Source: Deltaproteobacteria bacterium | GTDB taxonomy: Bacteria; Myxococcota_A; UBA796; JAFGLY01 | NCBI GenBank assembly: GCA_041309225.1 | Contig: JBFYZZ010000078.1 | Span: 1 to 62,731, forward strand | Direction of reading: 5' to 3' | DNA length: 62,731 bases | Shown here: positions 18,576-51,368 of the stretch, in pieces | Layout of the letters: every line of letters begins with the position of its first letter | Position numbering within the stretch: the stretch's first letter is position 1 | The notes under the pieces: model-generated | Told to the model about the DNA's origin: nothing | The model's input: the letters and a program-made list of their open reading frames with translations, nothing else | Databases searched by the model: none | Made by a program: the position numbers and the translations under genes

Positions 18576-18860
18576 ATGAAGTACTGGCGTACTCCCCTGG
18601 ACCTGGACCACATCACGGTCCCCCGCGGCGAGGTCCACATCCTCGTCGAACGCTGCAAGGGGTGCGGCTTTTGCGTCGAGTACTGCCCCAAGGGGGTGCT
18701 GGCCATCTCCGAGGCGTTCAACCACAAGGGCTACCACCCCCCCGAGGTGGTGAAGCCCGAGGAGTGCGTGAACTGCAACCTGTGCGAGATGATCTGCCCG
18801 GACTTCGCGATCTACTCGGTGGCCCTCCCCCCGGCGCCGGCCACCGTCACGTTCCGGTAG
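18576..18860 (+). CDS. korD: 2-oxoacid:ferredoxin oxidoreductase delta subunit (2x[4Fe-4S] ferredoxin-like)
   Basis: ORF 18576..18860. Motifs CKGCGFCVEYCP and CVNCNLCEMICP. Sits directly upstream of the alpha, beta and gamma subunits (D-A-B-G/C order, as in oorDABC-type operons). Confidence 0.85.
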   Translation: MKYWRTPLDLDHITVPRGEVHILVERCKGCGFCVEYCPKGVLAISEAFNHKGYHPPEVVKPEECVNCNLCEMICPDFAIYSVALPPAPATVTFR

Positions 18861-18901
18861 CTGGGCCGCGCCGCCACGGCCGGCCCCGAGGAGGATGGTT
18901 C

Positions 18902-20059
18902 GTGTCCGCTGATCCTGCAGGAGTGCTCACCGGCGTCCACTACCTGGACGGCGACTTCGCCTGCGGCGAGGGCGCGATGGCTGCGGGGTGCCGGTTCGTG
19001 GCCGGCTACCCGATCACCCCGTCCACCGAGGTCGTGGAGCGCATCGGACGCCGATTCCCCATGATGGGGGGCGTCTTCATCCAGATGGAGGACGAGCTCG
19101 CCAGCATGGCGGCCATCGTCGGGGCGTCCTGGACCGGCACCAAGACGATGACGGTGACCAGCGGGCCGGGGTTCAGCCTGATGATGGAGAACATCGGCCT
19201 CGCCGCCATGATGGAGGCGCCCTGCGTCGTCGTGAACGTGCAGCGGGGCGGGCCCTCCACGGGCCTGCCCACCATGGTCGGCCAGGCCGACATGATGCAG
19301 GCACGCTGGGGATCCCACGGCGACTACCCCATCATCGCGCTCTGCCCGCAGTCCCCGCAGGAGGCCTTCGACCTCACGGTCGAAGCCTTCAACCTCGCTG
19401 AGACCTGGCGCACCCCGGTGCTCCTGCTCATGGACGAGTGCGTGGGCCACATGACCGAGAAGGTGGTCATCCCGCCCGCCGAGCGGATCCACGTGGTCAA
19501 GCGCAAGCTGACCGACAAAAAGCCCGAGGAGTACCGTCCCTTCGACGTGGGCGACGGCTGGGTGCCCGAGTTCGCGCGGGCGGGCGACGGGTACCGGTTC
19601 CACGTCACGGGCCTCACCCACGACGAGCGCGGGTACCCGAGCATGACCGTCGAGTGCCAGGCCACGGCGATCCGGCGGCTCGTGGACAAGATCCGGCGCA
19701 ATGCGGACCGCATCGTCCGGTTCGAGGAGGATGGCGTCGACGACGCCGACGTGGTCGTGGTCGCCTACGGCATCACAGCCCGCGTCGCGCGGATGGCGAT
19801 CGAGATGGCGCGGGCGCAGGGGGCCAGGGTCGGCTTCCTGCGCCTCGTCGTGGCGTGGCCGTTCCCGGAGGCGCGGATCCGGGAGCTGGCCGGCCGGGTC
19901 CGTGCCTTCGTGGTGCCCGAGATCAACCTCGGGCAGATGGCCCTCGAGGTCGAACGCTGCGCGGCCGGACAGGCGCGCACGTCGTGCGTCTCCCACGCCG
20001 GCGGCGGCGTGCACGACCCCGAGGAGATCTGCCGCGCGATCCTGGAGGCCGTCCGATGA
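18902..20059 (+). CDS. korA: 2-oxoacid:ferredoxin oxidoreductase alpha subunit
   Basis: Part of ORF 18662..20059. GTG 18902 follows GAGGAGGA. Motifs GEGAMAAGCRFVAGYPITPSTE and TSGPGFSLMMENIG. Confidence 0.85.
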   Translation: MSADPAGVLTGVHYLDGDFACGEGAMAAGCRFVAGYPITPSTEVVERIGRRFPMMGGVFIQMEDELASMAAIVGASWTGTKTMTVTSGPGFSLMMENIGLAAMMEAPCVVVNVQRGGPSTGLPTMVGQADMMQARWGSHGDYPIIALCPQSPQEAFDLTVEAFNLAETWRTPVLLLMDECVGHMTEKVVIPPAERIHVVKRKLTDKKPEEYRPFDVGDGWVPEFARAGDGYRFHVTGLTHDERGYPSMTVECQATAIRRLVDKIRRNADRIVRFEEDGVDDADVVVVAYGITARVARMAIEMARAQGARVGFLRLVVAWPFPEARIRELAGRVRAFVVPEINLGQMALEVERCAAGQARTSCVSHAGGGVHDPEEICRAILEAVR

Positions 20060-20946
20060 GCCCCGCTTCCGAGCAGCGTCCCGGCGAGGAGCAGCATCCC
20101 ATCACGCCCTACATCCGCATGGACCGGATGCCCCACATCTGGTGCCCCACCTGCGGCATCGGGACCGTCGTGAAGTGCTACGTCCAGGCGCTCCTCGAGG
20201 AGGAGATCGACCTCGACAAGGTGGCGGTCGTGTCGGGCATCGGCTGCACCGGCCGCGTGGCCGGCTACGTCAAGCTCGACTCCTTCCACTCCACGCACGG
20301 CCGCGCCATCCCCTTCGCCACGGGCCTCAAGCTCTGCCGGCCCGAGCTGCTGGTCACCGTGTTCTCGGGGGACGGCGACCTGGTCGGCATCGGCGGCAAC
20401 CACTTCATCCACGCCGCCCGCCGCAACCAGGATCTCCTCGTCATCCTGGTCAACAACTTCATCTATGGCATGACCGGCGGGCAGAACGCACCCACCACCC
20501 CGCTTGGAGCGAAGTCGTCGACCATGTCGTTCGGCAACTTCGAGCGTCCTTTCAGTCTGCCGCACCTCGCGGCGTCGTGCGGGGCCACCTACGTCGCCCG
20601 GTGGACGTCCCTCCACATCCGGCGCCTCACCCGGTCCTTCCGGGAGGCCAGCCGGCGCAGGGGCTTCCGGTTCATCGAGGTCATCGCGCCCTGCTCCACC
20701 CTGTACGCTCGCCTGAACAAGCTGGGCACGGGCTACGACCTCATGAAGTTCTACCACGACTACGCCGAGATTCGGAACGGGGCGGACACCCGGGAGCTGG
20801 ACATCGAGTTCCAGTCCCGGATCGTGTGCGGCAAGTTCGTCGACGTGGAGAAGCCCACCTACCAGCAGGCCATGGACGCCCACTACCGCAAGGCCCTGGG
20901 GTCCAGCTACGTGCCCATGAAGCCGGAGGGAGGGTGGCTGCCATGA
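20056..20946 (+). CDS. korB: 2-oxoacid:ferredoxin oxidoreductase beta subunit (TPP/[4Fe-4S])
   Basis: Part of ORF 19438..20946. ATGA overlap with the korA stop. Motifs WCPTCGIG, GIGCTGR and GDGDLVGIGGNHFIHAARRN (TPP-binding GDG). Confidence 0.85.
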   Translation: MSPASEQRPGEEQHPITPYIRMDRMPHIWCPTCGIGTVVKCYVQALLEEEIDLDKVAVVSGIGCTGRVAGYVKLDSFHSTHGRAIPFATGLKLCRPELLVTVFSGDGDLVGIGGNHFIHAARRNQDLLVILVNNFIYGMTGGQNAPTTPLGAKSSTMSFGNFERPFSLPHLAASCGATYVARWTSLHIRRLTRSFREASRRRGFRFIEVIAPCSTLYARLNKLGTGYDLMKFYHDYAEIRNGADTRELDIEFQSRIVCGKFVDVEKPTYQQAMDAHYRKALGSSYVPMKPEGGWLP

Positions 20947-21530
20947 ACCGGACCGAGATCCGCATCACGGGGTTCGGCGGCCAGGGCGTCGTCCTGTGCG
21001 GCTACGTCATCGGCCGTGCATGCGCCATCCAGGCGGGCCAGCACGCCACCATGATCCAGTCCTTCGGGCCCGAGGCCCGGGGCTCGTCGTGCAGCGCCAC
21101 CCTGGTCGTCTCCGACCAGCCCGTGCTGTACCCCTACATCCGCCACCCGGACATCTTCGTCGTGATGTCCAACGACGGCTACGAGAAGTACGCCTCCGAG
21201 CTCAAGGACGACGCGGTGATCGTGTACGAGCGGGATCTGGTCCACCCGGAGCCCCGGCCCGGCCAGCGGGCCTACGGCGTGCCCTCCACCCGCATCGCCG
21301 AGAAGCTGGGGCGGGCCCTCATCCAGAACATCGTGATGCTCGGCTTCTTCGGTGCCGTGACGCGCATCGTGCCCCGGGACGAGATGCGGGAGGCGGTCCG
21401 GAATTCGGTGCCCGCCGGCACCGAGGCGCTCAACCTGAAGGCGTTCGACGCCGGATGGGCCTGGTTCGACGAGCAATACGGCGCCGACGGGGCTCCAGCC
21501 GGTGCGGCGCGTTCCGCGACCACGGGGTGA
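20943..21530 (+). CDS. korG: 2-oxoacid:ferredoxin oxidoreductase gamma subunit
   Basis: Part of ORF 19701..21530. ATGA overlap with korB. N-terminus IRITGFGGQGVVLCG is typical of gamma subunits. Confidence 0.85.
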   Translation: MNRTEIRITGFGGQGVVLCGYVIGRACAIQAGQHATMIQSFGPEARGSSCSATLVVSDQPVLYPYIRHPDIFVVMSNDGYEKYASELKDDAVIVYERDLVHPEPRPGQRAYGVPSTRIAEKLGRALIQNIVMLGFFGAVTRIVPRDEMREAVRNSVPAGTEALNLKAFDAGWAWFDEQYGADGAPAGAARSATTG

Positions 21531-21533
21531 GCC

Positions 21534-24500
21534 ATGACCACCGACGCTGCCCCTCCCCGCCGCGCCCTGGTGATCGGAGGCGGGATCGCGGGGATCCAGG
21601 CCGCCCTCGACCTCGCGAGCGCCCGGGTGCGCGTCACCCTGGTGGAGACGTCGCCGTCGCTGGGCGGGCGGATGGCCCAGCTGGACAAGACCTTCCCCAC
21701 CATGGACTGTGCGATATGAATCCTCGGCCCTAAGGCCATGGATGCCGGTCGGCATCCCCTCATCGACGTCGTCACCCACGCAGAGGTCGTCGCCTGCAGC
21801 GGCGAGCCGGGGGCGTTCCGGGTCCGGGTCCGGAAGCGGCCGCGCTACGTCCGGGAGGATCGCTGCGTGGCCTGCGGGCTCTGCGTGGTTGCGTGCCCGC
21901 AGGTGGGCGGCAACGAGTTCGACATGGGGATCAAGGCCCGGAAGGCCATCTACCGGCCGTTCCCGCAGTCCGTGCCCGCGACCTACGTGGTGGACCCGGA
22001 CGCCTGCCTCAACTTCCTCAACTTCCTGACCCCTCGCCAGCGCGATCGCCTCGAGCGCATCCGCTCGATCAAGGCCCGGAAGGACCCGGCGTACCGCACC
22101 GACTTCCTGGCCTGCGGCCACTGCTTGGCGGCCTGCGAGGTCCAGGCCATCGACTTCGACATGGCCCCCGAGGAGTTCGACCTCGACGTGGGCGCGATCC
22201 TCGTCGCCACGGGGTTCCAGGAGTTCGACGCCCGGGCGCTGCGCACCTACGGCTACGGCCGCCTGCCCAACGTGGTGACCAGCCTCGAGCTCGAGCGGAT
22301 GCTCAACGCCTCGGGCGTCACCCAGGGCCACGTGATCCGGCCCAGCGACGCCCGCACGCCCCGCCGGATGGTCTTCGTGCAGTGCGTGGGCGCCCGGGGC
22401 GAGGGGGGTCGTCCCTACTGCAGCCGGTTCTGCTGCATGAACGCCGTGAAGGACTCCCTTCTCGTGCGCCAGCACGATCCGGGGGTGGAGGAGGTCACCA
22501 TCCTCTACACGGACATGCGCGCCTTCGGGAAGGGGTTCGACGACTTCGTCGAGCGCGCCCGCCGCGAGCGGAGCGCCCGCTTCATCCGGGGCCGGCCGGC
22601 CACGATCCGCCACGACCCCACCGACGACACGCTCGAGGTCTTCGTGGAGGACACCCTCGCCCACGAGCCGATGCGGATCCGGGCCGATCTCGTGGTCCTC
22701 TCGGTGGCGGCGGCCCCCAACGAGGGCGCCGTGGAGCTGGCTCGGATGCTCGGGATCGAGACCGACGTCTACGGCTTCATCGCCCGCCTGGACCCCGCCG
22801 TCTCGGCGGTGGAGACCCGCCGCGAGGGGGTGTTCGTGGCCGGCAGCGCGGTCGGGCCGCAGGTCATCCCCGACTGCGTGGCCCAGGCCTCCGCCGCCGC
22901 CGCACGGGCCGCACGCTTCCTGGCCGCCGAGCGGGTCGAGGAGGACCGGACGCCCCCGCCTCCCCTGGATCTCTCGGGCCCTCCCCGCATCGGCGTCCTG
23001 GTCTGCCACTGCGGGGTCAACATCGCGGGCGTCCTCGACGTGAAGGCCCTGGCCGCCCATGCGGCTGCCCAGCCCGGGGTCGTGGTGGCGGTGGACGACG
23101 CCTTCGCCTGCTCCTCCACCGGCCAGGAGACGCTCGCAGCGCTCGTGGCCGAGCACCGGCTCAACCGCGTGGTGGTGGCGGCGTGCACGCCCCGCACCCA
23201 CGAGCCCGTCTTCCGGGAGACCTGCGCCCGGCTGGGCTTCAACCCCTACCTCCTGGAGATGGTCAACATCCGCGACCAGTGCTCCTGGGTCCACGCCGGC
23301 CACCCGGCCGAGGCCCAGGAGAAGGCCCGGGCGCTGCTCCGGATGGGCATCGCCCGCGCGCGCCACCTCGAGCCCCTCGAGCAGGGGCGGGCGCCGGTCA
23401 CGCGCCATGCGCTCGTCGTCGGCGGGGGCATCGCGGGCATCCAGGCGGCCACCGACCTCGCGGAGCAGGGCTTCCCGGTCACGCTCGTGGAAGCGGCCTC
23501 CCGGCTGGGCGGCCGACTCGCCGCCCCCCACCTGTGGCGGCTCTACCCCAACGACCGGGCGGCCTCCGAGGTCCTCGCCCGCAAGGTGGAGCGCCTCCAC
23601 GCGAGCGGGGCCCGGGTGCTCACCGGTACCGAAGTCACGGGGATCACGGGCTTCGTCGGCTCGTTCCAGGCCACGCTCCGGGGCGCGGAGGACGAGATCC
23701 TGCCCGTGGGGGTGGTCATCCTGGCCTTCGGGGCCGACCTCGCCGACCCCGGTGGAGCGTACGGCCACGGCCGGCTCCCCAACGTGATCACCAGCGAGGA
23801 CCTCGAGCGCGCGTTCCACGAGGGGGGGCCGCGCATCGACGGGGCCCTGCCCCGGAGCGCGGCCTTCGTGCTCTGCGTCGGCTCCCGGGAGGAGCACGGC
23901 TTCACCGGGTGCTCCCGGTACTGCTGTCCCACAGCCGTGAAGCAGGCCCTCGCGCTGGCCCGCCAGGGCGTGGACTGCACGGTGTTCTACCGAGACATCC
24001 GCACGGTCTCGTGGGGCACCGAAGAGATGTACCGCGAGGCCCGCGGCGCCGGCGTGCTGTTCGTGCGCATCCCGCCCGGCGAGCGTCCGCGGGTGCTGGG
24101 CGAAACCCGCGCCGAGCGGGTCCGCTGCCGCGACGACCTCCTGGGCCGGGAGATCGAGGTGCCGGCGGACCTCGTGGTGTTGAGCGTGGGGATGCGACCG
24201 CGCCAACCCGAGACCGCCCACTTCCACGACATCCTCAAGGTGAGCGTGGGCCTCGACGGGTTCTTCCTGGAGCGCCACCCGGAGCTGGCCCCGGTGGAGA
24301 CCGCCGTCGAGGGCGTCTTCCTGGCGGGCACCGTGCAGGGGCCGAAGGACCTCGTGGACACCGTGGCCCAGGCATCCGCCGCCGCGGCCAAGGCCTCCGT
24401 GCTGCTCGCCCACGACCAGATCCGGCTCGATCCGGCGGTGGCCGTGGTGGATCCCCTGAAGTGCCGCGGCTGCGGCCAGTGCGTCGAGATCTGCAGGTTC

Positions 24501-24683
24501 CAGGCCCCCTCCCTCAAGGAGATCGAGCCGGGCGCCTGGATCGCGGAGGTGAACGCCTCCCTGTGCAAGGGCTGCGGCACCTGCGCCTCGTGGTGCCCCT
24601 CCGGCGCCATCTCGGCCCGGCACTTCACGGAGCGCCAGATCGTCTCCATGGTGGACGCCCTCTTCGCGGAGGGATCGCGATGA
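21534..24683 (+). CDS. hdrA: HdrA-like flavoprotein, tandem two-unit form, selenocysteine-containing (UGA 21717..21719 recoded)
   Basis: ORFs 21534..21719 and 21738..24683 are in the same frame, separated only by TGA plus 6 sense codons. Read-through gives [22 protein letters not shown], colinear with FPTLDCAACILTPKMV in the Cys paralogues at 42824 and 48393. Two FAD Rossmann motifs ([32 protein letters not shown]). Internal HdrA N-domain Cys set ([10 protein letters not shown] / FACSSTG / VAACTP). Ferredoxin-type Cys clusters, including C-terminal [11 protein letters not shown] and [12 protein letters not shown]. Confidence 0.8.
21740..21757 (+). promoter_or_regulatory. SECIS-like hairpin (7-bp stem GGAUGCC/GGCAUCC, GGUC loop) downstream of UGA 21717
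   Basis: Perfect inverted repeat ggatgcc-ggtc-ggcatcc read directly. The loop starts 30 nt after the U of UGA. The identical element follows the second in-frame UGA at 26895. Confidence 0.5.
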
Positions 24684-25111
24684 CCGCCCCCGCCGCCACC
24701 TGGAACCCGCGCATCGTCGTCTTCGCCTGCAACTGGTGCTCCTACGCCGGTGCCGACACCGCGGGGGTCTCGCGCGTCCAGCACCAGCCCCACTTCCGGA
24801 TCATCCGGGTGATGTGCTCGGGCCGCATCCAGCCCTCCTTCGTGCTCCGTGCCTTCGAGAAGGGCGCCGACGGCGTCCTGGTGTCCGGGTGCCACATCGG
24901 CGACTGCCACTACCTGTTCGGGAACGAACGGGCGGTGGAGCAGTTCGAGAAGACCCGCGCCGTGACGCGCGTGCTCGGGCTGGAGGACGACCGGCTGCGC
25001 CTGGAGTGGATCTCCGCCGCCGAGGGCGCCCGGTTCGCCCAGGTCATCGACGAGTTCACCGACCGCGTGCGGGCCCTGGGCCCCAGCCCCCTGGCCGCGG
25101 AGGCTCCATGA
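24680..25111 (+). CDS. mvhD: MvhD-like [2Fe-2S] electron-transfer subunit
   Basis: Part of ORF 21893..25111. ATGA overlap with the hdrA stop. Motifs [29 protein letters not shown] and LEWISAAEG. Confidence 0.85.
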
Positions 25112-26280
25112 GCAGCGCCTGCCGCGAGCGCCTCTCTGCCATCGCCGCCCGGACCCGCGCCTGGGCCTGCTACGACTGCGGCAAGTGCACGGCCACCTGC
25201 CCCGTCACCCGGATCGGCGGGTCGCTCTCGCCCCGCCGCACGGTGCTCTCCACCCACCTCCCGCACGCCGACCCGGCCGTCCACTCCGCCGACCTCGCCT
25301 CCTGCCTCACGTGCCGCGCCTGCGACCTCCGGTGCCCGGTCCAGGTGGACTACACGGGCCTCGTCCGGGAGCTGCGCACCCTCGCCCACGAGGAGGGCGC
25401 CGAGCCCGAGTGCCCCCACGGCGGGGCCCTCCAGTCCCTCATGCGGATGATGGCGCGGGGCACCCAGCGCCAGCAGCGCCTCGGCTGGATCGGGAGCGAC
25501 CTCCGCACGGATCCGGCCCGGGGCCACGTGTTCCTCTGGACGGGCTGCACCGTCTACTACGACGCCTTCTTCCCCGAGTATGGCATGCGCACGCTCGACG
25601 GCACCCGCGCCGCCGTCCGCCTGCTCAACGCGCTCGGGGAGGTGCCGGTGGTCTCCCCCGAGGAGGCGTGCTGCGGCCACGACCTCCTCTGGAACGGCGA
25701 TCGGCCGTCGTTCGAGGCGCTCGCCCGCCGCAACGCCGCCCTCCTGCGCGCGAGCGGCGCGAGCGTGGTGGTCGCGCCCTGTGCCGAGTGCGCCCGCACC
25801 CTCCGCCTCGACTATGCGCCGTTCCTGGGCGCGGGCGCTCCGCGGATCCTGCACCTCTCCGAGTACCTCCTCGAGCGGATCGCCGAGCTCCCCCTCACCC
25901 GGCCGGAGGCCGTGCGGGTCACCTACCAGGATCCCTGCCGCCTGGGCCGCCACCTCGGCGTGGTGGACGCCCCGCGTCGCCTGCTCGAAGCCGTGCCGGG
26001 CCTGGAGCGGGTGGAGATGGCCCACCACGGCCGCAACGCCACCTGCTGCGCCGGCGGCACCTGGTCCGCGTGCGACCGGTACGCCAAGAAGCTCCAGGTC
26101 GAACGCCTCAAGGAAGCCCGGGCCACCGGCGCGACGATTCTCGTGACCGCCTGCCCCAAGTGCCAGATCCACTTCCGCTGCGCCCAGAAGGACCCCAACC
26201 TGGGCCAGGACATCGCCATCGAGATGCGGGACGTCGCCCAGGTGCTGGCCGACGCCCTCCGACCCCTGGAGGCTCCATGA
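25108..26280 (+). CDS. HdrC-HdrB fusion (HdrD-like) Fe-S/CCG-domain subunit
   Basis: Part of ORF 24736..26280, with ATGA overlap. N-terminal [12 protein letters not shown] and [12 protein letters not shown] (2x[4Fe-4S]). Cys-rich CCG-type segments follow ([32 protein letters not shown]). Confidence 0.8.
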
Positions 26281-28739
26281 CCGATCCCGTCCAGAATCCT
26301 CCGAGCGACGAGGAGGTGCGCGTCGGCGTCTTCGTCTGCGACTGCGGCCTCAACATCGCGGGCGCCGTGGACTGCGGCGCCGTGGCGGAGTTCGCCGCCA
26401 CGCTGCCGGACGTGACCACGGTGGTCCGCAACAAGTACACCTGCGCGGATCCGGGCCAGAACGAGATCCGGAACGCGATCCGCCAGCACCACCTCAACCG
26501 GGTGGTGGTGGCTTCCTGCACCCCGCGCCAGCACGAGCCGACGTTCCGGCAGTGCGTGCTCGAGGCCGGCCTCAATCCCTACCTCATGGAGATGGCCAAC
26601 CTCCGCGAGCACTGCGCCTGGGTCCACCCCAACGACCGCGAGGCCGCCACGGCCAAGGCCATGGATCTCGTGGCCAGCGCCGTGGCCAAGGCCCGCTTCC
26701 TCCAGCCCCAGGAGGAGATGGTGGTCCCCGTCACGCGCCGGGCGCTCGTGATCGGCGGCGGGGTCGCCGGGATCGAGGCGGCGCTCGAGCTCGCGGATCA
26801 GGGGCACAAGGTCACGCTGGTCGAGAAGCAGCCCTCGATCGGCGGGATCATGGCCCAGCTCGACAAGACCTACCCCACCATGGACTGTAGCATATGAATC
26901 CTCGGGCCCAAGGCCATGGATGCCGGTCGGCATCCCAACATCGAGCTCCTGACCTTCTCCGAGGTCGACGACGTCTCCGGCTACGTGGGCAACTTCACGG
27001 TCCGGATCCGGAAGAAGGCCCGCTACGTGGACCCCACGGCCTGCAACGCCTGCGGGGAGTGCGCCAAGGTCTGCCCGCAGGTCCGCCCCGACGAGTACCA
27101 GATGGGGCTCTCGGCCCGCAAGGCCATCTACATCCCCTTCCCCCAGGCGGTGCCCTGCGCCTACGTCCTCGACATGGAGAGCTGTCTGGGCAACATCCCC
27201 ATCGCCTGCGGCAAGTGCGCCGACGCCTGTGAGAAGAAGGCCATCGACTACGACGATCGCGACGAGATCGTCACCCGCGAGATCGGCTCGATCATCGTGG
27301 CGGTCGGGGCCGACGTCTACGACCCCACCCAGGACGACGAGTACGGCTACACCCGGTTCCGGAACGTGATCACCTCCATGGAGTTCGAGCGCCTGATCTG
27401 CGCGGGCGGCCCCACCGGCGGGCACTTCGTCCGGCCGAGTGACCGGCGGCGGCCGACGCGGATCGGGTTCGTCCAGTGCGTGGGCTCCCGGAATCCGAGG
27501 CTGAACCGTCCCTGGTGCTCCAACATCTGCTGCATGAACACGGTCAAGGACACCCTGCTCCTCGCCGACCACTACCCCGACACCGAAAACGTGGTGTTCT
27601 ACCAGGATATTCGTTCGTTCGGCAAGGGCTTCGAGGACATGTTCCAGCGCTCCAAGCAGGCGGGCACCCGGTACGTGCGCGGCCTGCCGGGGGAGATCGT
27701 GGAGGACCCGGCCACGGGCAACCTCCACGTCACCGTGGAGAACACCACCGCCGGCCGGATCGAGCGGTACGAACTGGACATGGTCGTGCTCTCGGTGGGC
27801 GTGGAGCCTCCCAGGGACCTCGCGAGGATCTCGGGCCTGCTCACGCTCTCCAAGACGTCCGACGGCTTCTTCATGGAGTCGCATCCCAAGCTCAAGCCGG
27901 TCGACGCGCCCACCCGTGGCGTCTACTTCGCGGGCTTCTGCGAGTCCCCCAAGGACATCAAGGACTCGGTCTGCCAGGCCGGGGCCGCGGCGTCCCGGGC
28001 CGGAGCCCTGCTCAACGCGGGCCGCATCCGGATCGAGGCCATCACCTCCCGGATCGATCCCGCAGCCTGCACGAAGTGCGGCCTGTGCGCCCAGGTCTGC
28101 CCCTACGGGGCGATCCGGTGGCAGAAGGGCGAGGTGGCCACGGTGGTGGAGGCGGCCTGCGCCGGGTGCGGCGCCTGTGGCGCCACCTGCCGATCCGGCG
28201 CCATCACGATGCGGCACTTCACCGACGACCAGCTCCTGGCCCAGGTCCGGGCGGTGCTCGCGCATCGGCCCGAGGACAAGGTGTTCGTGTTCGCCTGCAA
28301 CTGGTGCTCCTACGCGGGCGGGGACATGGCGGGCATCTCCCGCATGGCCTACCCCGCCTCCAACCGCGTGGTGCGGACCATGTGCTCCGCCCGTGTCTCG
28401 GAGGAGATGGTGGTCGAGGCCTTCCGGTGCGGTGCACCCGTGGTGCTCGTCTCGGGCTGTCACTACGCGGACTGCCACTACATCAGCGCCAACCGCCAGA
28501 CCGTGAAGCGGGTGGATCGGCTGTGGGACCGACTCGAGCGGCTGGGCATCCGGCCCGAGCGGCTGCAGCTCGAGTGGATCAGCGCGGCGGAGGGCCAGAA
28601 GTTCGCCGCCGTCATGCGGCGCCTCGAGGATCTCAGGCGCACCGTCACCGCCGAGGAGATCGCCCTCACGCGCGCGGCGCTCGCCGCGCCGGCGAAGCCC
28701 GCGCCGAAGCCCGCCCGGGCCACCGCGCCCCAGGAGTGA
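26277..28739 (+). CDS. hdrA: HdrA-MvhD fusion flavoprotein, selenocysteine-containing (UGA 26895..26897 recoded)
   Basis: The tail of ORF 25185..26897 and ORF 26916..28739 share one frame across the TGA, giving [22 protein letters not shown]. Full HdrA N-domain ([10 protein letters not shown] / YTCADPG / VASCTP). FAD motif [16 protein letters not shown]. Fused C-terminal MvhD module ([38 protein letters not shown]). Confidence 0.8.
26918..26935 (+). promoter_or_regulatory. SECIS-like hairpin (GGAUGCC-GGUC-GGCAUCC) downstream of UGA 26895
   Basis: Same 18-nt element and same spacing as at 21740..21757. Confidence 0.5.
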
Positions 28740-28742
28740 GCC

Positions 28743-28916
28743 ATGGCTCCCACGACCGAGACGTTCCGGTGCATGGCCTGCGGCCACGAGTACGAGGAGC
28801 TCGTGGAGAAGGGCGTGGACCGGGAGCGGCAGTGCCCCCGCTGTCGCTCCAACAGCATCCGCCAGCTCAAGCGGAAGCCCGCGCCGGACGCGGGCGCCGG
28901 GGGATCGGCGACATGA
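28743..28916 (+). CDS. FmdB-type zinc-ribbon mini-protein (57 aa)
   Basis: Not in the supplied ORF track. Hand translation: [57 protein letters not shown]. CxxC...CxxC ribbon. Starts 4 nt after the hdrA stop, and its stop overlaps the next start (ATGA). Confidence 0.55.
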
Positions 28917-30325
28917 GCGACGAGAAGCCGGTTCTCACCGTCGACTTCGCATTCCGGCGCGAGCTGGCCCGGAAGGTGGAGGGCAACCTCGCCTCCTTCT
29001 GCTACCAGTGCGGGGCCTGCGTGGGGGACTGCCCGGCCGCGGCCTACGATCCGGCCTTCAATCCACGGACCCTCATGCTGGAGGTCCTGTACGGCGCGAG
29101 CGGGCACCTGCTCGGGCCCGACTCGCCGCTGTGGCTCTGCACGAACTGCTACGCCTGCCACGAACGCTGCCCCCAGCAGGTGAAGCCGGTCGAGGTCATC
29201 ATCGCGCTCAAGAACATGCTCCACGACCGGGGCCTGCACCCCCCGGCCGTGGACCGGGTGATCCGGTCGTTCGAGGAGACCGGCCGCACCACGCCGGTCA
29301 CGCCGGCCGTGGAGCGCACGCGGGAGGCCCTCGGCCTCCCCCCGCTCGAGCCCGTGCCGGTGGCGGAGATCCGCGCCCTCCTGGGCGACGACGCCCCCGC
29401 CGAGGCGCCACGGTCGGCACGGCTCCCGGCCCCGCCACCCTCCCCGGCGCGCCGGTTCGCCTTCTTCCCCGGCTGCCTGATCCCCACCCGCATGCCCGCC
29501 ATGGAGCTCGCCATCCGGGAGGCGCTCGCCCGGCTGGAGGTGGAGGTGGTGGACCTGCCCGGGGCCTCGTGCTGCCCGGATCCCATCTACTTCAAGTCGA
29601 GGGACAAGGCCGACTGGCTCGCGGTGGCCGCCCGCAACCTCTCCCTGGCCGAGGATCTCGGGCTCGACCTCTTCACCAACTGCTCGGGGTGCACCGCCAC
29701 GCTGTCCGAGACCGTGCACCTCATGCAGGACCCCGTCCTCCGCGAGCGGACCAACAACCGGCTCGCCCGGATCGGACGGACCTACCAGGGCACCTCCAGG
29801 GTCCGCCACGTGGTCACCCTGCTCCGCGACGTCGTGGGGTACGAGGCGATCCGGGCCTCGGTCGTCCGCCCCCTCGAGGGGCTGAAGGTGGCCATCCACT
29901 ACGGCTGCCACCTCCTCAAGCCCAGCGCCGTCATGAACGTGGACGACCCGGACGATCCGCATGTCCTGGAAGACCTCGTGCGTGCGCTCGGGGCCGAGCC
30001 GGTGCGCCACCGCAACTGGTACCTGTGCTGCGGCAAGGCCTGCCAGGACGAGGACCTCCCGTCGCGCATGATGCGCGATCTCCTCGGCGCGGTCCACGCG
30101 GAGGAGGCCGAGCTGCTCTGCCTCATCTGCCCCACCTGCTTCGCCCAGTTCGACTACGGCCAGGCCCGCGTGGCGAAGCAGTTCGACGCCGACTTCCACA
30201 TGCCTGTCGTATACTTGTTCCAGCTCCTGGCGTTCGCGCAGGGCACGCCCTACGAGCGGCTGGGGTTCGACCGTCAGCGGTTCAAGCCGGAGGCGCTCCG
30301 AAGGTTCGAGACCCCCGGGCCGTGA
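28913..30325 (+). CDS. HdrC-HdrB fusion Fe-S/CCG-domain subunit
   Basis: Part of ORF 27476..30325. Motifs [12 protein letters not shown] and [12 protein letters not shown]. HdrB-like half has [26 protein letters not shown] and ICPTCFAQF. Confidence 0.8.
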
Positions 30326-30352: not shown

Positions 30353-30940
30353 ATGAAAGGCAAGGACGAGACCCTCAAGGACGGGACGGTGGTCCACATC
30401 CGCCGCGTGACGATGCACGACCTCGACCGCCTGATGGCGTTCTACCACGCCCTGCCGACGGAGGATCGCCGTTACTTGAAGTTCGACGTGACGGATCGCG
30501 AGGCGGTCCGCCAGCGCCTCCGCCTCATGCGCGGCGGTCGCCTGCTCCGCATCGCGGCCCTGCTCGACGACGAGGTCATCGGCGACGGCGTCCTTGAGTT
30601 CTCCCCGGAGAGCTGGCGTCGCGACCAGGCGGAGGTCCGGGTGCTGGTGGCCCGTCCGTTCCAGCACCGGGGCGTGGGCAGTGCGCTCATACGCGAGCTG
30701 TACTTCATGGCCATCGCCCGGGGCGTCCACAAGCTCGTGGGGAAGATGATGCGGCCCCAGCACGCGGCCATCGCGATCTGCCACAAGCTCGGCTTCCGCG
30801 AGGAGGTATTGATCCCGGACTACGTCCGGGACGTCTCCGGTCAGCCGCAGGACCTCGTCGTGCTGATCGCCGACATCCAGGACCTGTGGCACGAGCTCGA
30901 GTGGCTCTACCGCGACACGGACATGCGCCGCTGGCAGTAG
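30353..30940 (+). CDS. GNAT-family N-acetyltransferase
   Basis: ORF 30353..30940. Acetyl-CoA-binding-type segment [24 protein letters not shown] precedes the ATG. Confidence 0.8.
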
Positions 30941-31006
30941 CGCCGCGCCCTTCCCCCTGCCCCCGGTTTCCGGGTATCCTCCGGGTGACCCTTCCCGGAG
31001 GCTGCC

Positions 31007-31684
31007 ATGCGCTCGCTCCTCCTCCTCCTCGCCCTGCTGCTGGCCGGGCTTCCGGCCTGCGCCACGGACGACACCGGCACGCCGGACGACACCGACGCCG
31101 ACACCGACACCGACGCCGACACCGACGCCGACACCGACGCCGACACCGACGCCGACACCGACGCCGACACCGACGCGGATGCCGACGCCGACACCGATGC
31201 CGACCCCGACACCGACGCGGACGCCGACGCCGACACCGACGCGGATGCCGACGCCGACACCGACGCGGATGCCGACGCCGACACCGACGCGGATGCCGAC
31301 GCCGACACCGACGCGGATACCGACGCCGACGCGGATGCCGACGCCGACGCGGATGCCGACGTGTTCGACGTCGTGGTGTCGGATGTCGATGCCAGCTGCG
31401 GGTCCAGCGGCTCCGAGACGCCGCCCCGCCTCTCGGCACGGGCCACCGGGTCGGGCACCATCTCGGTGCTCCACGAGAACTTCGAGTATGGCTGCTGCCC
31501 CACCATGGAGGTGCGGGCCTCGGGGGACGTGCGTGCCGGCACGATCGCCGCCGAGTACGCCATCCTCAGCGATCCCTGCGACTGCATCTGCCTGCTCGAC
31601 CTGACCTGGACCGGCTCGGGCATCCCCGCGGGCACGTGGACGCTCACGGAGGGCGCGGACAGCACCCCGGTCAAGGTGCCCTGA
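31007..31684 (+). CDS. Lipoprotein with long acidic ([10 protein letters not shown])n repeat and Cys-rich C-terminal domain
   Basis: ORF 31007..31684. [18 protein letters not shown] is a lipobox. About 90 residues consist only of D/T/A(/P). The globular tail has 6 Cys (CGSSG, YGCCPT, DPCDCIC). Confidence 0.7.
31085..31360 (+). repeat. In-frame tandem repeat (12-nt gacaccgacgcc units grading into 24-nt gacaccgacgcggatgccgacgcc units)
   Basis: Read directly. Encodes DTDA then DTDADADA periods. It produces long spurious antisense ORFs (for example 28478..31474, 30705..31439, 30907..31698). Confidence 0.9.
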
Positions 31685-42819: not shown

Positions 42820-42823
42820 TCCC

Positions 42824-44818: not shown

Positions 44819-44826
44819 GAGCGACC

Positions 44827-45279: not shown

Positions 45280-45281
45280 CC

Positions 45282-46244: not shown

Positions 46245-46266
46245 TCCCGACCGAAAGGCCACTTCG

Positions 46267-47733: not shown

Positions 47734-47736
47734 CCC

Positions 47737-48231: not shown

Positions 48232-48273
48232 TCCCGGACACGCTCCGAACCGGGAGGCGTGCCAAAAGGGAAT

Positions 48274-50198: not shown

Positions 50199-50199
50199 G

Positions 50200-51357: not shown

Positions 51358-51368
51358 CAGGAGCTCCC

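What the first reader, a model, noticed from the sequence alone, without database searches (positions are those of the whole stretch)
18576..30325. 2-oxoacid:ferredoxin oxidoreductase translationally chained to two hydrogenase-less Sec-Hdr modules
From korD (18576) to the second HdrCB fusion (30325) every junction is tight. It is either a 4-nt start/stop overlap (20056, 20943, 24680, 25108, 26277, 28913) or a short gap: 3 nt at korG->hdrA (21530/21534), 3 nt at hdrA->Zn ribbon (28739/28743), and 41 nt at korD->korA. This argues for one transcript with coupled translation.

This part of the locus has no hydrogenase, so the electron partner of these HdrA units is most simply the ferredoxin handled by the adjacent KOR/OOR-type enzyme. 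Two readings are possible:
- (a) 2-oxoacid oxidation delivers reduced ferredoxin to an Hdr-type confurcating or bifurcating reductase.
- (b) Hdr modules supply low-potential ferredoxin for reductive carboxylation (2-oxoacid synthase direction), using the H2-driven modules downstream.

I am not aware of a characterised OFOR-HdrA(Sec)-MvhD-HdrCB operon, but I cannot search the literature.
Basis: inference. Interest (0 to 1): 0.7.

Follow-up and report, generated by a model that had tools for sequence, protein, structure and literature searches.

The report
Oxoacid oxidoreductase operon fused to Hdr modules
A ten-gene operon joins a CO2-releasing/CO2-fixing 2-oxoacid enzyme to two selenium-containing electron-splitting (Hdr) modules. 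The same gene cluster recurs in hundreds of uncultured sediment bacteria, which points to an uncharacterised enzyme machine of which only a cousin has been discussed in print.

Summary
korD-korA-korB-korG-hdrA1-mvhD-hdrCB1-hdrA2-Zn ribbon-hdrCB2 (18576-30325, + strand) has six ATGA overlaps, two 3-nt gaps and one 41-nt gap. Both HdrA genes read through a UGA followed by a conserved SECIS hairpin.

The adjacency is not unique to this genome:
- 56 of 70 informative loci found with KorA carry Hdr genes beside kor.
- 63 of 65 informative loci found with HdrA1 have kor directly upstream.
- In some genomes korG lies after the Hdr genes.

The same KorDABG family pairs with four Hdr sets:
- the window's double-HdrA + HdrCB2 set;
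- a GltD/NfnB-like NAD(P)H flavoprotein set;
- a Flx set;
- an Flx/Tfr set, the arrangement published for tubeworm-symbiont reverse-TCA clusters (Rubin-Blum 2019; Mitchell 2024).

The kor-hdr link therefore has genomic and transcriptomic precedent. The window's architecture is a widespread variant that I did not find described, but literature searching failed part-way.

Best reading: an OFOR-Hdr supercomplex that bypasses free ferredoxin. The direction (carboxylation versus oxidation) and the thiol substrates remain open. A link to the hydrogenases 15 kb downstream could not be tested.

The parts
18576..18860 (+). korD: delta subunit, 94 aa, two CxxCxxCxxxCP [4Fe-4S] motifs; N-terminal MKYWRTPLD motif
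   Evidence: Pfam Fer4 families. Best NCBIfam hits are OGOR_delta/OorD, below cut-off. The N-terminal motif is conserved only in Hdr-linked cluster types A-C.
18902..20059 (+). korA: alpha subunit, 385 aa (GTG start)
   Evidence: POR_N + PFOR_II. Passes NF006412, 2-oxoacid:acceptor oxidoreductase alpha (569 > 411), but not the OorA-specific model. PDB 1yd7 1e-112; 8ys5 '2-oxoglutarate synthase alpha' 4e-80. Among the 120 best homologs, nearly all are 385 aa, at 76-86% identity.
20056..20946 (+). korB: beta subunit, TPP-binding, 296 aa
   Evidence: TPP_enzyme_C. Best NCBIfam hit is the 2-oxoglutarate Fd oxidoreductase beta model, below cut-off. ATGA overlap with korA.
20943..21530 (+). korG: gamma subunit, 195 aa
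   Evidence: POR domain. ATGA overlap with korB. In L025/L032/L080/L113 this gene sits after hdrCB2 instead.
21534..24683 (+). hdrA1: 1049-aa fused asymmetric double HdrA. The first half has FAD, Sec and the inserted ferredoxin domain. The second half has the N-terminal FeS domain, a second FAD fold without Sec, and the C-terminal ferredoxin domain.
   Evidence: Four aligned stretches to HdrA of PDB 5odc: aa 9-159 = 144-294, 192-409 = 294-511, 483-653 = 3-173, 863-1046 = 471-652. NF040770 scores 1028.8, below the 1100 cut-off. Homologs are almost always preceded by kor (63/65).
21717..21757 (+). Sec codon UGA (21717-21719) and SECIS-like hairpin (21740-21757) of hdrA1
   Evidence: (-19.2 kcal/mol).
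24680..25111 (+). mvhD: 143 aa, [2Fe-2S] adaptor subunit
   Evidence: Pfam FlpD 6e-52. ATGA overlaps on both sides.
25108..26280 (+). hdrCB1: 390-aa HdrD/TfrB-like protein (HdrC-type 2x[4Fe-4S] + two CCG domains)
   Evidence: Pfam Fer4_17 + CCG x2. Best NCBIfam hits are TfrB and LdhH, below cut-off. PDB 9ojn 'iron-sulfur-binding reductase' 3e-28.
26277..28739 (+). hdrA2: 820-aa complete HdrA with Sec, fused to a C-terminal MvhD domain (aa 669-784)
   Evidence: Passes NF040770 'HdrA2' (1133 > 1100), aligned 15-794 to 1-775/777. FlpD 4.5e-41.
26895..26935 (+). Sec codon UGA (26895-26897) and SECIS-like hairpin (26918-26935) of hdrA2
   Evidence: (-18.3 kcal/mol).
28743..28916 (+). 57-aa FmdB-family CxxC...CxxC zinc ribbon
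   Evidence: Zn_ribbon_8 (33.5 bits, just below the 34.4 cut-off) and TIGR02605 (31.6 > 31.3). Conserved between hdrA2 and hdrCB2 in type A loci and after hdrA2 in some type B loci.
28913..30325 (+). hdrCB2: 470-aa fusion of HdrC (aa ~20-150) and a true HdrB (aa ~181-460)
   Evidence: HdrB of methanogens 1e-65 including the ASCCP motif; HdrC 5e-22. TIGR03288 scores 263, below the 345 cut-off. Present in type A loci; absent in 10/10 type B loci.
30353..31684 (+). GNAT acetyltransferase (30353-30940) and a 225-aa protein without family match (31007-31684). Same strand, gaps of 27 and 66 nt. Possibly co-transcribed but not part of the conserved cluster.
   Evidence: unk225 has no match in any related locus, and GNAT only weak (29-32%) matches in about 12 loci. 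No conserved gene follows hdrCB2.

Best explanation
The ten genes encode one enzyme machine: a four-subunit 2-oxoacid (most likely 2-oxoglutarate):ferredoxin oxidoreductase wired directly into HdrA-type flavin-based electron-bifurcating modules, so that its low-potential electrons do not pass through free ferredoxin.

**Modules, from comparative anatomy**
- Shared core: KorDABG + MvhD + HdrCB1 + HdrA2-MvhD (+ zinc ribbon).
- Exchangeable third module:
  - here, HdrA1 (a fused asymmetric HdrA 'heterodimer') plus HdrCB2 (a true HdrC-HdrB);
  - in sister clusters, a GltD/NfnB-like NAD(P)H flavoprotein or FlxABCD.

**Proposed path (inferred)**
- The third module feeds electron pairs through MvhD to the Sec-flanked FAD of HdrA2.
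- One electron goes 'downhill' to the CCG clusters of HdrCB1 (a disulfide or similar acceptor).
- The other goes 'uphill' through HdrA ferredoxin-like domains into the two [4Fe-4S] clusters of KorD and the TPP site.
- There it drives acyl-CoA + CO2 -> 2-oxoacid. This is analogous to formylmethanofuran dehydrogenase in the methanogen Hdr supercomplex and to the model published for the Kor-Flx-Hdr cluster of tubeworm symbionts.
- The reaction is expected to be reversible.

**Shown**
- Genes, domains, Sec/SECIS, operon-like junctions, conserved reciprocal synteny, and the module swap.

**Inferred**
- Physical complex, wiring, substrate, direction, and the nature of the thiol/disulfide couples.

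**Likelihoods**
- A functional kor-Hdr unit of some kind: about 0.9.
- Direct physical wiring: about 0.7.
- Given wiring, the reductive direction as the main physiological one: about 0.55.
For: - **Junctions.** They leave no room for independent signals.
- **Synteny, KorA-seeded.** 56/70 informative loci have Hdr genes next to kor. All those with KorA >=72% identical do.
- **Synteny, HdrA1-seeded.** 63/65 informative loci (49-76% identity) have kor directly upstream, and the two exceptions are artefacts.
- **Interleaving.** korG sits after hdrCB2 in L025/L032/L080/L113. hdrCB sits before korD in type D loci.
- **KorD docking candidate.** The N-terminal motif M(K/R)YWRxPLD and its second-cluster motif track Hdr linkage.
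- **Module swap.** HdrA1 + HdrCB2 (type A) alternate with a GltD-like NAD(P)H module without HdrCB2 (type B, 10/10 loci).
- **Hybrids.** HdrA1 copies with a GltD-like insert occur in L019/L020/L112.
- **Complete FBEB set in sister types.** Types B, C and D supply a donor module, MvhD, HdrA and HdrCB and lack only a low-potential acceptor, which is the position the OFOR would fill.
- **Published precedent.** Model plus co-transcription for the type D arrangement in the reverse TCA cycle (PMC6315080 main text and Text S1 Note 3; PMC11636981).
- **TCA context for the substrate.** tfrAB in type D loci, citrate synthase next to some clusters, and best partial NCBIfam/PDB matches to 2-oxoglutarate enzymes.
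- **Second OFOR.** A two-subunit OFOR sits beside the cluster in Thermoanaerobaculia loci, as in the symbionts, suggesting division of labour.
- **HdrA1 architecture.** The complementary halves match the 'fused HdrA heterodimer' pattern described for ANME and Moorella HdrA (PMC9012536).
Against: - No protein-level evidence of a complex exists; synteny cannot distinguish a supercomplex from co-regulated partners.
- The window variant has no recognisable mid-potential hydride donor site (no NAD(P)H, H2, formate or F420 module). What feeds a bifurcation is therefore unknown.
- Many host lineages are regarded as heterotrophs that use OGOR oxidatively. For example, Zixibacteria RBG-1 lacks ATP-citrate lyase (PMC3903129), which favours the oxidative direction.
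- No ACL, Tfr or other reverse-TCA gene is in this window.
- Substrate-specific NCBIfam models are not reached.
- HdrA2-type enzymes may also run with reduced ferredoxin as donor (my recollection of Yan 2017; not checked here).
Confidence: 0.38

Rival explanations
1. Same supercomplex, opposite physiological direction. 2-oxoacid oxidation (about -500 mV) is the electron source. The Hdr modules use these electrons to reduce one or two disulfides (2-oxoacid:heterodisulfide oxidoreductase). Alternatively they confurcate them with thiol-derived electrons onto a mid-potential acceptor, which recycles the OFOR without free ferredoxin in an oxidative TCA cycle or in amino-acid fermentation.
For: - Same synteny evidence as the best explanation.
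- The host labels are mostly anaerobic or facultative heterotrophs. Zixibacteria RBG-1 uses OGOR in an oxidative TCA cycle, lacks ACL, and was noted to cluster OGOR with Mvh/Hdr and Nfn (PMC3903129).
- The window's neighbours are sulfatases, a protease and a lipase.
- The type B partner is NfnB-like. From my knowledge of NfnAB (not checked here), that enzyme often runs in the confurcating direction.
- Citrate synthase lies beside some clusters.
- There is no reverse-TCA marker in the window.
Against: - Oxidative decarboxylation needs no special coupling device, since ordinary ferredoxin suffices.
- The thiol would need an independent re-reduction route, and none is visible.
- The only experimentally supported relative (type D) is expressed with reverse-TCA genes (PMC11636981).
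- The presence of a second, two-subunit OFOR next to the cluster in several lineages fits a specialised (reductive) role for the Hdr-linked one.
Confidence: 0.32
2. There is no physical complex. The OFOR and one or two soluble Hdr complexes are merely co-expressed because they share the cellular ferredoxin pool, in either direction.
For: - Known Hdr systems (Mvh-Hdr, HdrA2B2C2, Flx-Hdr) use free ferredoxin (PMC5861303).
- The OFOR has a standard delta subunit of the kind that serves soluble ferredoxin.
- The korG->hdrA1 spacer is not tight in most relatives (median 63 nt).
Against: - Reciprocal exclusivity of HdrA1 with kor (63/65).
- kor and hdr genes are interleaved in two independent arrangements.
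- A KorD sequence signature is specific to Hdr-linked clusters.
- No ferredoxin gene is in the cluster or conserved beside it.
- KorA is very strongly conserved (76-80% identity across phylum labels) within linked clusters.
Confidence: 0.22
3. This rival concerns the substrate and is independent of the others. The OFOR does not act on 2-oxoglutarate but on another 2-oxoacid, such as pyruvate, 2-oxoisovalerate or an aromatic 2-oxoacid.
For: - Only the generic NCBIfam model is passed.
- The 2-oxoglutarate-specific models for alpha, beta and delta are below cut-off.
- The best PDB match is an unspecified '2-keto acid:ferredoxin oxidoreductase'.
Against: - Scores against Por, Vor and Ior models are far lower than against the 2-oxoglutarate models.
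- The D-A-B-G gene order matches the OorDABC type (the order is from my knowledge of Helicobacter oor; the NCBIfam OorD/OorC models are the best partial matches).
- Relatives sit with tfrAB, citrate synthase and (published) aclAB/idh (PMC6315080).
- Sources name homologs 2-oxoglutarate ferredoxin oxidoreductase. This is annotation only.
Confidence: 0.25
4. Chance or purely historical adjacency without any functional relation.
For: None beyond the absence of experiments.
Against: Conservation across hundreds of loci, many phylum labels and several rearrangements.
Confidence: 0.02

Closest known systems
Kor-Hdr-Flx(-Tfr) reverse-TCA gene cluster of tubeworm symbionts (Ca. Endoriftia, Escarpia symbiont) and Thioflavicoccus mobilis (Rubin-Blum et al. 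2019, PMC6315080; Mitchell et al. 2024, PMC11636981)
   Same: - A four-subunit korDABC(G) is flanked or interleaved by hdrCB, hdrA and an MvhD homolog (flxD) on one strand.
- It is proposed to be one complex in which bifurcated electrons go directly to the OGOR.
- Loci of this type (L038, L070-L072, L076, L078, L079) were recovered here with the window's KorA at 65-69% identity.
   Different: - The window has no flxABC, tfrAB, aclAB or idh.
- It has a fused double HdrA, a second HdrA fused to MvhD, a zinc ribbon and two different HdrCB proteins.
- Both window HdrA proteins use Sec.
- The hosts are not known autotrophs.
- The published case rests on genomics and transcriptomics only.
MvhADG-HdrABC and Fdh/Mvh-Hdr-Fmd supercomplexes of methanogens (PDB 5odc, 8rvu, 7bkb)
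   Same: - The HdrA fold, with FAD and the Cys/Sec next to it, and the N-terminal, inserted and C-terminal FeS domains.
- MvhD, HdrC, and HdrB with two CCG sites.
- Matches: HdrA1 1e-203, HdrCB2 1e-65.
- From my knowledge of the 7bkb work: a CO2-fixing enzyme receives the low-potential electrons directly.
   Different: - No hydrogenase or formate dehydrogenase is in the operon.
- HdrC and HdrB are fused.
- The partner would be a TPP/FeS 2-oxoacid enzyme instead of Fmd.
- CoM-S-S-CoB is unlikely to exist in these bacteria.
HdrA2B2C2 of Methanosarcina acetivorans (Yan et al. 2017, as summarised in PMC5861303)
   Same: - HdrA fused to MvhD; the window's HdrA2 passes the NCBIfam HdrA2 model.
- It works without a hydrogenase.
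   Different: - The donor there is F420H2 and the acceptor CoM-S-S-CoB.
- There is no OFOR, no Sec and no second HdrA.
Fused or tandem asymmetric HdrA (ANME HdrA3/4 and the Moorella thermoacetica HdrA of MetFV-HdrABC-MvhD; Chadwick et al. 2022, PMC9012536)
   Same: - Two HdrA units in one chain with complementary features.
- One unit has the Cys197 position; the other has the N-terminal FeS domain.
   Different: - The order of the two halves is reversed in the window: the Sec half comes first.
- The partner enzyme is an OFOR, not MetFV.
Sec-containing HdrA/HdrL + MvhD loci of Desulfobacterium autotrophicum (Strittmatter et al. 2009, PMC2702500)
   Same: - Hydrogenase-less Sec-HdrA followed by mvhD.
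- HdrL is an HdrA/glutamate-synthase (NADH) fusion, like the GltD-containing relatives seen here.
   Different: Those loci are next to fdh, dsr or mvh genes, not next to an OFOR.
OorDABC-type four-subunit 2-oxoglutarate:acceptor oxidoreductase (NCBIfam OorD/OorA/OorC models; PDB 8ys5)
   Same: Subunit set, gene order D-A-B-G, and domain content.
   Different: - All Oor-specific models are below cut-off.
- KorD carries an extra N-terminal motif.
- The enzyme is embedded in an Hdr operon.
BamDEF part of class II benzoyl-CoA reductase (from memory; not tested here)
   Same: An HdrD-like protein, a double HdrA-like protein and an MvhD-like protein, with Sec, serve a low-potential reduction without a hydrogenase.
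   Different: - There is no BamB/C tungsten enzyme and no BamGHI NADH module in the window.
- No sequence comparison could be made.

Membership tests
Four-subunit 2-oxoacid:ferredoxin oxidoreductase (delta-alpha-beta-gamma) | Alpha subunit with POR_N and PFOR_II domains | tested here: met
   Pfam 6e-74 and 2e-22. NF006412 scores 569, above the 411 cut-off.
Four-subunit 2-oxoacid:ferredoxin oxidoreductase (delta-alpha-beta-gamma) | Beta subunit with a TPP-binding domain; gamma subunit with a POR domain; delta subunit with two [4Fe-4S] motifs | tested here: met
   TPP_enzyme_C 5e-29, POR 1e-33, Fer4 families. Two CxxCxxCxxxCP motifs can be read in KorD.
2-oxoglutarate-specific OFOR (OGOR / OorDABC) | Scores above the curated cut-offs of the 2-oxoglutarate-specific models | tested here: not met
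   OorA NF007206 scores 378 < 579; beta NF007207 226 < 364; OGOR_delta 68 < 125; OorC 87 < 216. These are nevertheless the best specific matches, well above the Por/Vor/Ior models.
2-oxoglutarate-specific OFOR (OGOR / OorDABC) | 2-oxoglutarate/succinyl-CoA activity | not testable with these tools
   Only context speaks for it: tfrAB, citrate synthase and the published acl/idh neighbours of relatives (PMC6315080).
HdrABC-type flavin-based electron-bifurcating heterodisulfide reductase | HdrA with the FAD fold, N-terminal FeS domain, inserted and C-terminal ferredoxin domains, and Cys/Sec next to the flavin | tested here: met
   HdrA2 scores 1133 against NF040770 (cut-off 1100) over its full length. 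Sec is at the aligned Cys position. HdrA1 carries the same parts split over two halves and is below cut-off (1028.8).
HdrABC-type flavin-based electron-bifurcating heterodisulfide reductase | HdrB with two CCG cysteine motifs, and HdrC with two [4Fe-4S] clusters | tested here: inconclusive
   HdrCB2 aligns to methanogen HdrB at 1e-65, with the ASCCP motif, and to HdrC at 5e-22. It stays below the TIGR03288/TIGR03290 cut-offs (263 < 345; 93 < 160). HdrCB1 is HdrD/TfrB-like.
HdrABC-type flavin-based electron-bifurcating heterodisulfide reductase | An attached two-electron donor module (Mvh, Fdh, Flx, F420H2 or NAD(P)H site) | tested here: not met
   No such domain lies in 18.5-31.7 kb. Sister clusters have GltD-like or Flx modules.
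HdrABC-type flavin-based electron-bifurcating heterodisulfide reductase | Bifurcating activity and a heterodisulfide substrate | not testable with these tools
   No assay is possible, and the substrate thiols of bacterial Hdr are unknown.
Kor-Flx-Hdr-Tfr reverse-TCA cluster (Rubin-Blum 2019) | korDABG adjacent to or interleaved with hdrA, hdrCB and an MvhD/FlxD gene on one strand | tested here: met
   Relatives with the published order were recovered.
Kor-Flx-Hdr-Tfr reverse-TCA cluster (Rubin-Blum 2019) | flxABC, tfrAB and aclAB/idh in the same cluster | tested here: not met
   No tblastn match to FlxA/B/C or TfrA/B in the window. No such Pfam domains are found anywhere in the window.
Bacterial selenoprotein gene | In-frame UGA at a conserved Cys position, followed by a SECIS hairpin with a GGUC-type loop | tested here: met
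   62/62 TGA; six stem pairs kept in all or all but one of 59 unique sequences; one compensatory pair; GGUC loop in 57/59. No Rfam match.
Class II benzoyl-CoA reductase (Bam) | BamB/C tungsten aldehyde-oxidoreductase-type subunits and a BamGHI NADH module next to BamDEF | tested here: not met
   No AOR-type or NuoEFG-type domain is found in the window. Similarity of HdrA1 to BamE itself was not tested.

The most novel reading that the evidence does not exclude
**What it would be**
- The window-type cluster (KorDABG + HdrA1 + MvhD + HdrCB1 + HdrA2-MvhD + Zn ribbon + HdrCB2) would be a self-contained, three-flavin, two-HdrB bifurcating machine.
- Its two-electron donor would not be H2, formate, NAD(P)H or F420H2. 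It would be a second thiol/disulfide couple handled by HdrCB2/HdrA1.
- HdrCB2 + HdrA1 is exactly the unit that replaces the NAD(P)H flavoprotein of sister clusters.

**What it would do**
- It would couple two sulfur redox couples to the 2-oxoacid/acyl-CoA + CO2 couple.

**Why it would be new**
- It would be the first OFOR shown to be an integral arm of an electron-bifurcating complex.
- It would be a new route to, or sink for, about -500 mV electrons in many uncultured sediment phyla.
Probability: 0.2. Interest if true: 0.85.

Novelty: new variant of a known kind. Interest (0 to 1): 0.6.

Why it matters
**The open problem**
- 2-oxoacid:ferredoxin oxidoreductases catalyse the hardest redox steps of the TCA cycle, in both directions.
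- How cells supply or dispose of their roughly -500 mV electrons is a long-standing question for the reverse TCA cycle and for anaerobic heterotrophs.

**What would be new**
- A direct OFOR-Hdr machine would be a new class of flavin-based electron-bifurcating complex. It would be the carbon-carbon-bond analogue of the methanogen Hdr-Fmd supercomplex.

**Scale**
The capped set of 8000 candidates scored for each of KorA and HdrA1 nearly all passed the E-value threshold.
- The record titles carry at least nine phylum-level labels: Acidobacteriota, Planctomycetota, Gemmatimonadota, Zixibacteria, Marinimicrobia, KSB1, Calditrichota, Fermentibacteria and Latescibacteria.
- Carbon and sulfur budgets inferred for these sediment groups may therefore miss a major redox link.

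**A practical point**
- The Sec codon causes public annotations to truncate HdrA1 and label it 'FAD-dependent oxidoreductase'. This helps to explain why the cluster has been overlooked.

Tried and rejected
1. **Consensus promoter and terminator scan of 16.5-32.5 kb.** It found nothing at the junctions. The three terminator-like hits equal the shuffle expectation and lie inside genes. This is uninformative beyond 'no obvious break'.
2. **Rfam scan of the region.** It gave no SECIS or other RNA family, only a chance lncRNA hit. SECIS was instead supported by folding and covariation.
3. **Search for a further conserved partner downstream of hdrCB2** (ferredoxin, DsrC-like or thioredoxin-like). 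ORF clustering over 25 type A and 10 type B loci found none. It found only occasional extra Hdr/Flx sets and citrate synthase.
4. **Test of the 'H2-driven modules downstream' idea.** MvhA/MvhG were searched in all 161 related loci with no hits. The flanks end about 4 kb past hdrCB2, while the window's hydrogenases are 15 kb away, so the test is not informative.
5. **The upstream 446-aa ORF (17145-18485), GNAT and the 225-aa ORF as cluster members.** They are not conserved and were rejected as core parts.
6. **Looking for cultured hosts through HdrA1 homolog names.** The best 120 hits are all metagenomic or MAG sequences.
7. **Structure prediction.** It was considered and dropped. Only single chains can be modelled, and the output gives no inter-domain geometry, so it could not test the complex or the pseudo-dimer.
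8. **Literature.**
   - Three full-text searches worked.
   - All later ones, and the DOI look-ups, failed with time-outs.
   - The HdrA review by Appel et al. 2021 is not held.
   - One wrong PMC id was fetched by mistake.
   - The statement that the window-type architecture is undescribed therefore rests on an incomplete search.

Full report
**1. The observation**

The window is about 72% G+C, so mechanical ORF lists are full of spurious frames.

| Gene | Coordinates (+ strand) |
|---|---|
| korD | 18576-18860 |
| korA | 18902-20059 |
| korB | 20056-20946 |
| korG | 20943-21530 |
| hdrA1 | 21534-24683 |
| mvhD | 24680-25111 |
| hdrCB1 | 25108-26280 |
| hdrA2 | 26277-28739 |
| zinc-ribbon gene | 28743-28916 |
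| hdrCB2 | 28913-30325 |

The junctions are as claimed:
- six ATGA overlaps;
- two 3-nt gaps;
- one 41-nt gap.

Pfam and NCBIfam confirm every assignment. A consensus scan finds no promoter-like or terminator-like site at any junction.

The same strand continues with a GNAT gene (27-nt gap) and a 225-aa ORF without family match (66-nt gap). A convergent sigma-54 response regulator and histidine kinase then end the unit near 31.7 kb.

Upstream lie a 446-aa ORF without family match and then unrelated genes: sulfatases, pirin, an alcohol dehydrogenase, a lipase, RNase HII and a Tricorn-like protease.

**2. Selenocysteine**

- Each HdrA gene has one in-frame TGA (21717 and 26895), in the motif MDC[AS]I-U-ILGPK.
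- In the alignment to HdrA of PDB 5odc the TGA takes the place of the second Cys of the DCSIC motif. I take this to be the residue called Cys197 in the literature (PMC9012536).
- 23 nt downstream of each TGA lies the hairpin GAUGCC-GGUC-GGCAUC (-19.2 and -18.3 kcal/mol for the 49-nt segments).
- In related loci all 62 occurrences of the motif use TGA.
- Six stem pairs are kept in all or all but one of 59 unique sequences. One pair alternates C-G (38), U-A (14) and U-G (7).
- The loop is GGUC in 57/59.

Sec read-through is therefore well supported. It is also why public gene calls split HdrA1 into a 61-aa piece and a 981-aa piece.

**3. Anatomy of the proteins**

*OFOR*
- KorDABG is a standard four-subunit OFOR.
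- KorA passes only the generic NCBIfam model. The 2-oxoglutarate-specific models are the best specific matches but lie below cut-off.
- The nearest solved chains are a Pyrococcus '2-keto acid:ferredoxin oxidoreductase' (organism from my memory) and a '2-oxoglutarate synthase' alpha subunit.

*HdrA2*
- It is a complete HdrA fused to MvhD and passes the 'HdrA2' model.

*HdrA1*
- It is a fusion of two complementary HdrA units.
- Residues 9-409 match the flavin domain, with Sec and the inserted ferredoxin domain, but lack the N-terminal FeS domain.
- Residues 483-1046 carry the N-terminal FeS domain, a second FAD fold (GGGIAG, CVGSR...CSRYCC) and the C-terminal ferredoxin domain, but no Sec/Cys motif and no inserted domain.
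- This complementarity has been described for fused or tandem HdrA of ANME archaea and for the Moorella HdrA, and was read there as a covalent heterodimer (PMC9012536). In the window the order of the halves is reversed.

*HdrCB proteins*
- HdrCB2 is HdrC fused to a true HdrB: 1e-65 to methanogen HdrB, including the ASCCP motif.
- HdrCB1 is HdrD/TfrB-like.

**4. Is the adjacency conserved?**

*Search seeded with KorA*
- KorA's 120 best homologs are 76-86% identical and nearly all 385 aa, from MAGs of many phyla.
- A scan of one genome per species returned 80 loci. I compared these with all window proteins by tblastn.
- Of 70 informative loci (including the window and L081), 56 carry Hdr genes beside kor. 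All loci whose KorA is >=72% identical do so.
- The 14 without Hdr genes cluster together in a KorA neighbour-joining tree: Acidobacteriaceae, Bryobacteraceae, Bacteroidota, Chlorobi/Ignavibacteria, a Myxococcota MAG and others.

*Reciprocal search seeded with HdrA1*
- A metagenome scan returned 80 loci at 49-76% identity.
- 63 of the 65 with enough upstream DNA have kor directly upstream.
- The two exceptions are a duplicated hdrA1 and a frameshifted contig.

*Closest relative*
- A 'Deltaproteobacteria' MAG (KorA 86% identical) has the same ten genes, the same 3-nt korG-hdrA1 gap and the same upstream neighbours.

*Spacing and interleaving*
- Across 82 korG-hdrA1 junctions the median spacer is 63 nt.
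- In L025, L032, L080 and L113 korG lies after hdrCB2, so the Hdr genes sit inside the kor operon.

**5. Four kinds of partner set**

The same KorDABG family is joined to the following sets (for the counts).

| Type | Loci | Arrangement |
|---|---|---|
| A (window type) | 30 | hdrA1-mvhD-hdrCB1-hdrA2(MvhD)-Zn-hdrCB2 |
| B | 15 | a 660-850-aa GltD/NfnB-like NAD(P)H flavoprotein with a ferredoxin domain and a fused or adjacent MvhD, then hdrCB1-hdrA2(MvhD), sometimes Zn |
| C | 2 | hdrA-flxDCBA-hdrCB |
| D | 6 | hdrCB-korDABG-hdrA-mvhD-(flxCBA)-tfrBA |

- Three further loci carry partial or other Hdr sets.
- In all ten type B loci with at least 2.3 kb after hdrA2, hdrCB2 is absent. In type A loci with enough sequence it is always present.
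- The shared core is therefore KorDABG + MvhD + HdrCB1 + HdrA2-MvhD.
- HdrA1 + HdrCB2 behave as one unit that is exchanged for an NAD(P)H module.
- Hybrids exist: a second hdrA1 copy with a GltD-like insert occurs in L019, L020, L112, L142 and L146. These resemble the HdrL type of Desulfobacterium autotrophicum (PMC2702500).
- KorD of types A-C shares an N-terminal motif, M(K/R)YWRxPLD, and a distinct second-cluster motif. Both are missing in unlinked clusters. This is a candidate docking element (inference).
- No further gene is conserved after hdrCB2. Citrate synthase follows in a few loci.
- A MarR gene precedes korD in two lineages.
- A two-subunit OFOR precedes korD in Thermoanaerobaculia.

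**6. What is already known**

- Type D is the arrangement published for the reverse-TCA cluster of tubeworm symbionts and Thioflavicoccus mobilis: tfrBA-hdrC-hdrB-korD-korA-korB-korC-hdrA-flxDCBA-aclBA-idh (PMC6315080, supplementary table and Text S1 Note 3).
- The authors proposed a complex that bifurcates NADH electrons directly to OGOR and to thiol:fumarate reductase.
- A later transcriptome study showed operon-like co-expression, including the intergenic regions (PMC11636981).
- Castelle et al. noted a cluster with Mvh/Hdr, PFOR, OGOR and Nfn in Zixibacteria RBG-1. That organism lacks ATP-citrate lyase and was judged to use OGOR oxidatively (PMC3903129).
- Hydrogenase-less Sec-HdrA + MvhD loci have been known since 2009 (PMC2702500).
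- HdrA-MvhD fusions are known from HdrA2B2C2 (PMC5861303).
- No solved structure contains an OFOR together with Hdr.
- I found no description of the type A or type B architecture. However, only three searches ran before the search tool began to time out, and the main HdrA review is not held.

**7. How it most likely works**

*Shown*
- One operon-like unit, the cofactor-binding domains, Sec, reciprocal and interleaved synteny, and the module exchange.

*Inferred, from the established architecture of Hdr complexes*
- In those complexes, electron pairs enter via MvhD, FAD in HdrA bifurcates, HdrBC forms the high-potential arm, and the ferredoxin-like domains form the low-potential arm.
- In types B-D everything needed for bifurcation is encoded except a low-potential acceptor. 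The OFOR is the only candidate in cis.
- By homology the OFOR should occupy the same position in type A.
- I therefore favour a supercomplex in which KorD is wired to the low-potential arm of HdrA2. It would then parallel formylmethanofuran dehydrogenase in the methanogen supercomplex (from my knowledge of that work).
- In type A the unit standing where the NAD(P)H module stands is HdrA1 + HdrCB2. The third redox couple may therefore be a second thiol/disulfide pair.

*Direction*

| Argument | Favours |
|---|---|
| The published type D case | reductive (2-oxoacid synthase) |
| The general logic that only the carboxylation needs such help | reductive |
| The side-by-side second OFOR | reductive |
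| The heterotrophic hosts | oxidative |
| The NfnB-like partner | oxidative |
| The absence of reverse-TCA genes in the window | oxidative |

I put the functional unit at about 0.9 and direct wiring at about 0.7. Given wiring, I put reductive against oxidative at about 55:45. The substrate is most likely 2-oxoglutarate (about 0.7).

**8. The downstream hydrogenases**

- The window holds two further clusters at 41-56.5 kb:
  - HdrCB-like, HdrA, MvhD, MvhG, MvhA and a protease;
  - then HdrA-like, an FeS protein, HdrA-like, MvhD, MvhG, MvhA and a protease.
- They have their own Hdr parts.
- They are separated from the kor operon by opposite-strand regulators and large secreted-protein genes.
- Whether they exchange thiols or ferredoxin with the kor-Hdr unit cannot be told. 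The related loci do not extend far enough to test co-location.

**9. Verdict**

- The finding is a new, very widespread variant of a kind of cluster that has so far been discussed only for gammaproteobacterial autotrophs, and it is experimentally uncharacterised.
- Interest is 0.6.

Noticed in passing
window 21534-21719 and 21738-24683; L081 12630-15779; P0122-P0240: Public gene calls split or truncate HdrA1 at the Sec codon. Database entries are 981-985 aa and start after the UGA. They are named only 'FAD-dependent oxidoreductase' or 'heterodisulfide reductase subunit A'. The whole family is mis-annotated at its N-terminus.
   Followed up: partly
window 41080-56514: A second redox island holds two Mvh-type [NiFe] hydrogenase clusters, each with its own HdrA-like, MvhD and FeS/HdrCB-like genes and a maturation protease. 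These HdrA genes have no in-frame stop, so they are not Sec proteins.
   Followed up: partly
L025, L032, L080, L113 (also L115, L116, L124): korG is displaced to the end of the cluster (korDAB-hdrA1-...-hdrCB2-korG), so the Hdr genes lie inside the kor operon.
   Followed up: yes
L019 15984-20426; L020 16120-20583; L112; L142; L146: There is a second hdrA1 copy carrying a roughly 1.4-kb GltD-like (NAD(P)H-binding) insertion between residues ~154 and ~194. It is a hybrid of the type A and type B partner modules and resembles HdrL.
   Followed up: partly
window 18576-18610 (KorD residues 1-12) and homologs: The KorD N-terminal motif M(K/R)YWRxPLD, and the second cluster motif CVNCNLCEMICPDF, are conserved in Hdr-linked types A-C. 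In Hdr-unlinked clusters they are absent or changed (CSGCDLCGMYCPDF).
   Followed up: partly
L162 8909-9505; L163 8983-9627: A MarR-family regulator gene lies directly upstream of korD in two different lineages (a type C and a type A cluster). The window has none.
   Followed up: no
L004, L011, L016, L019, L040, L085, L088, L139, L145, L162 (4162-6812): A two-subunit OFOR (gamma-alpha fusion plus beta; 35-39% identical to KorA/KorB) lies just upstream of the Hdr-linked korDABG in Thermoanaerobaculia-type loci.
   Followed up: no
window 17145-18485 (+): A 446-aa ORF with a coding-like G+C profile has no Pfam match and no counterpart in any related locus. That includes the otherwise syntenic L081, where the sulfatase gene abuts korD.
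   Followed up: no
window 30353-30940; L009, L014, L020, L021, L024, L036, L086, L093, L098, L103, L107: A GNAT acetyltransferase gene recurs near the cluster, upstream or downstream and on either strand, at only 29-32% identity to the window's copy. This could be chance.
   Followed up: no
L107 19318-20763; L054 18954-20225; L029 (- strand): A citrate synthase-like gene lies directly after the cluster in a few type A and type B loci. This is a weak hint at a TCA-cycle context.
   Followed up: no
window 31707-34447 (-) and 56489-56881 (+): A sigma-54-dependent response regulator and histidine kinase lie convergent to the end of the operon. A lone receiver-domain gene follows the second hydrogenase cluster. 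No sigma-54 promoter was looked for systematically.
   Followed up: no
L095, L102, L142, L145: A type A cluster is followed in tandem by an hdrA-flxDCB set, so some genomes place both partner systems next to one kor operon.
   Followed up: no
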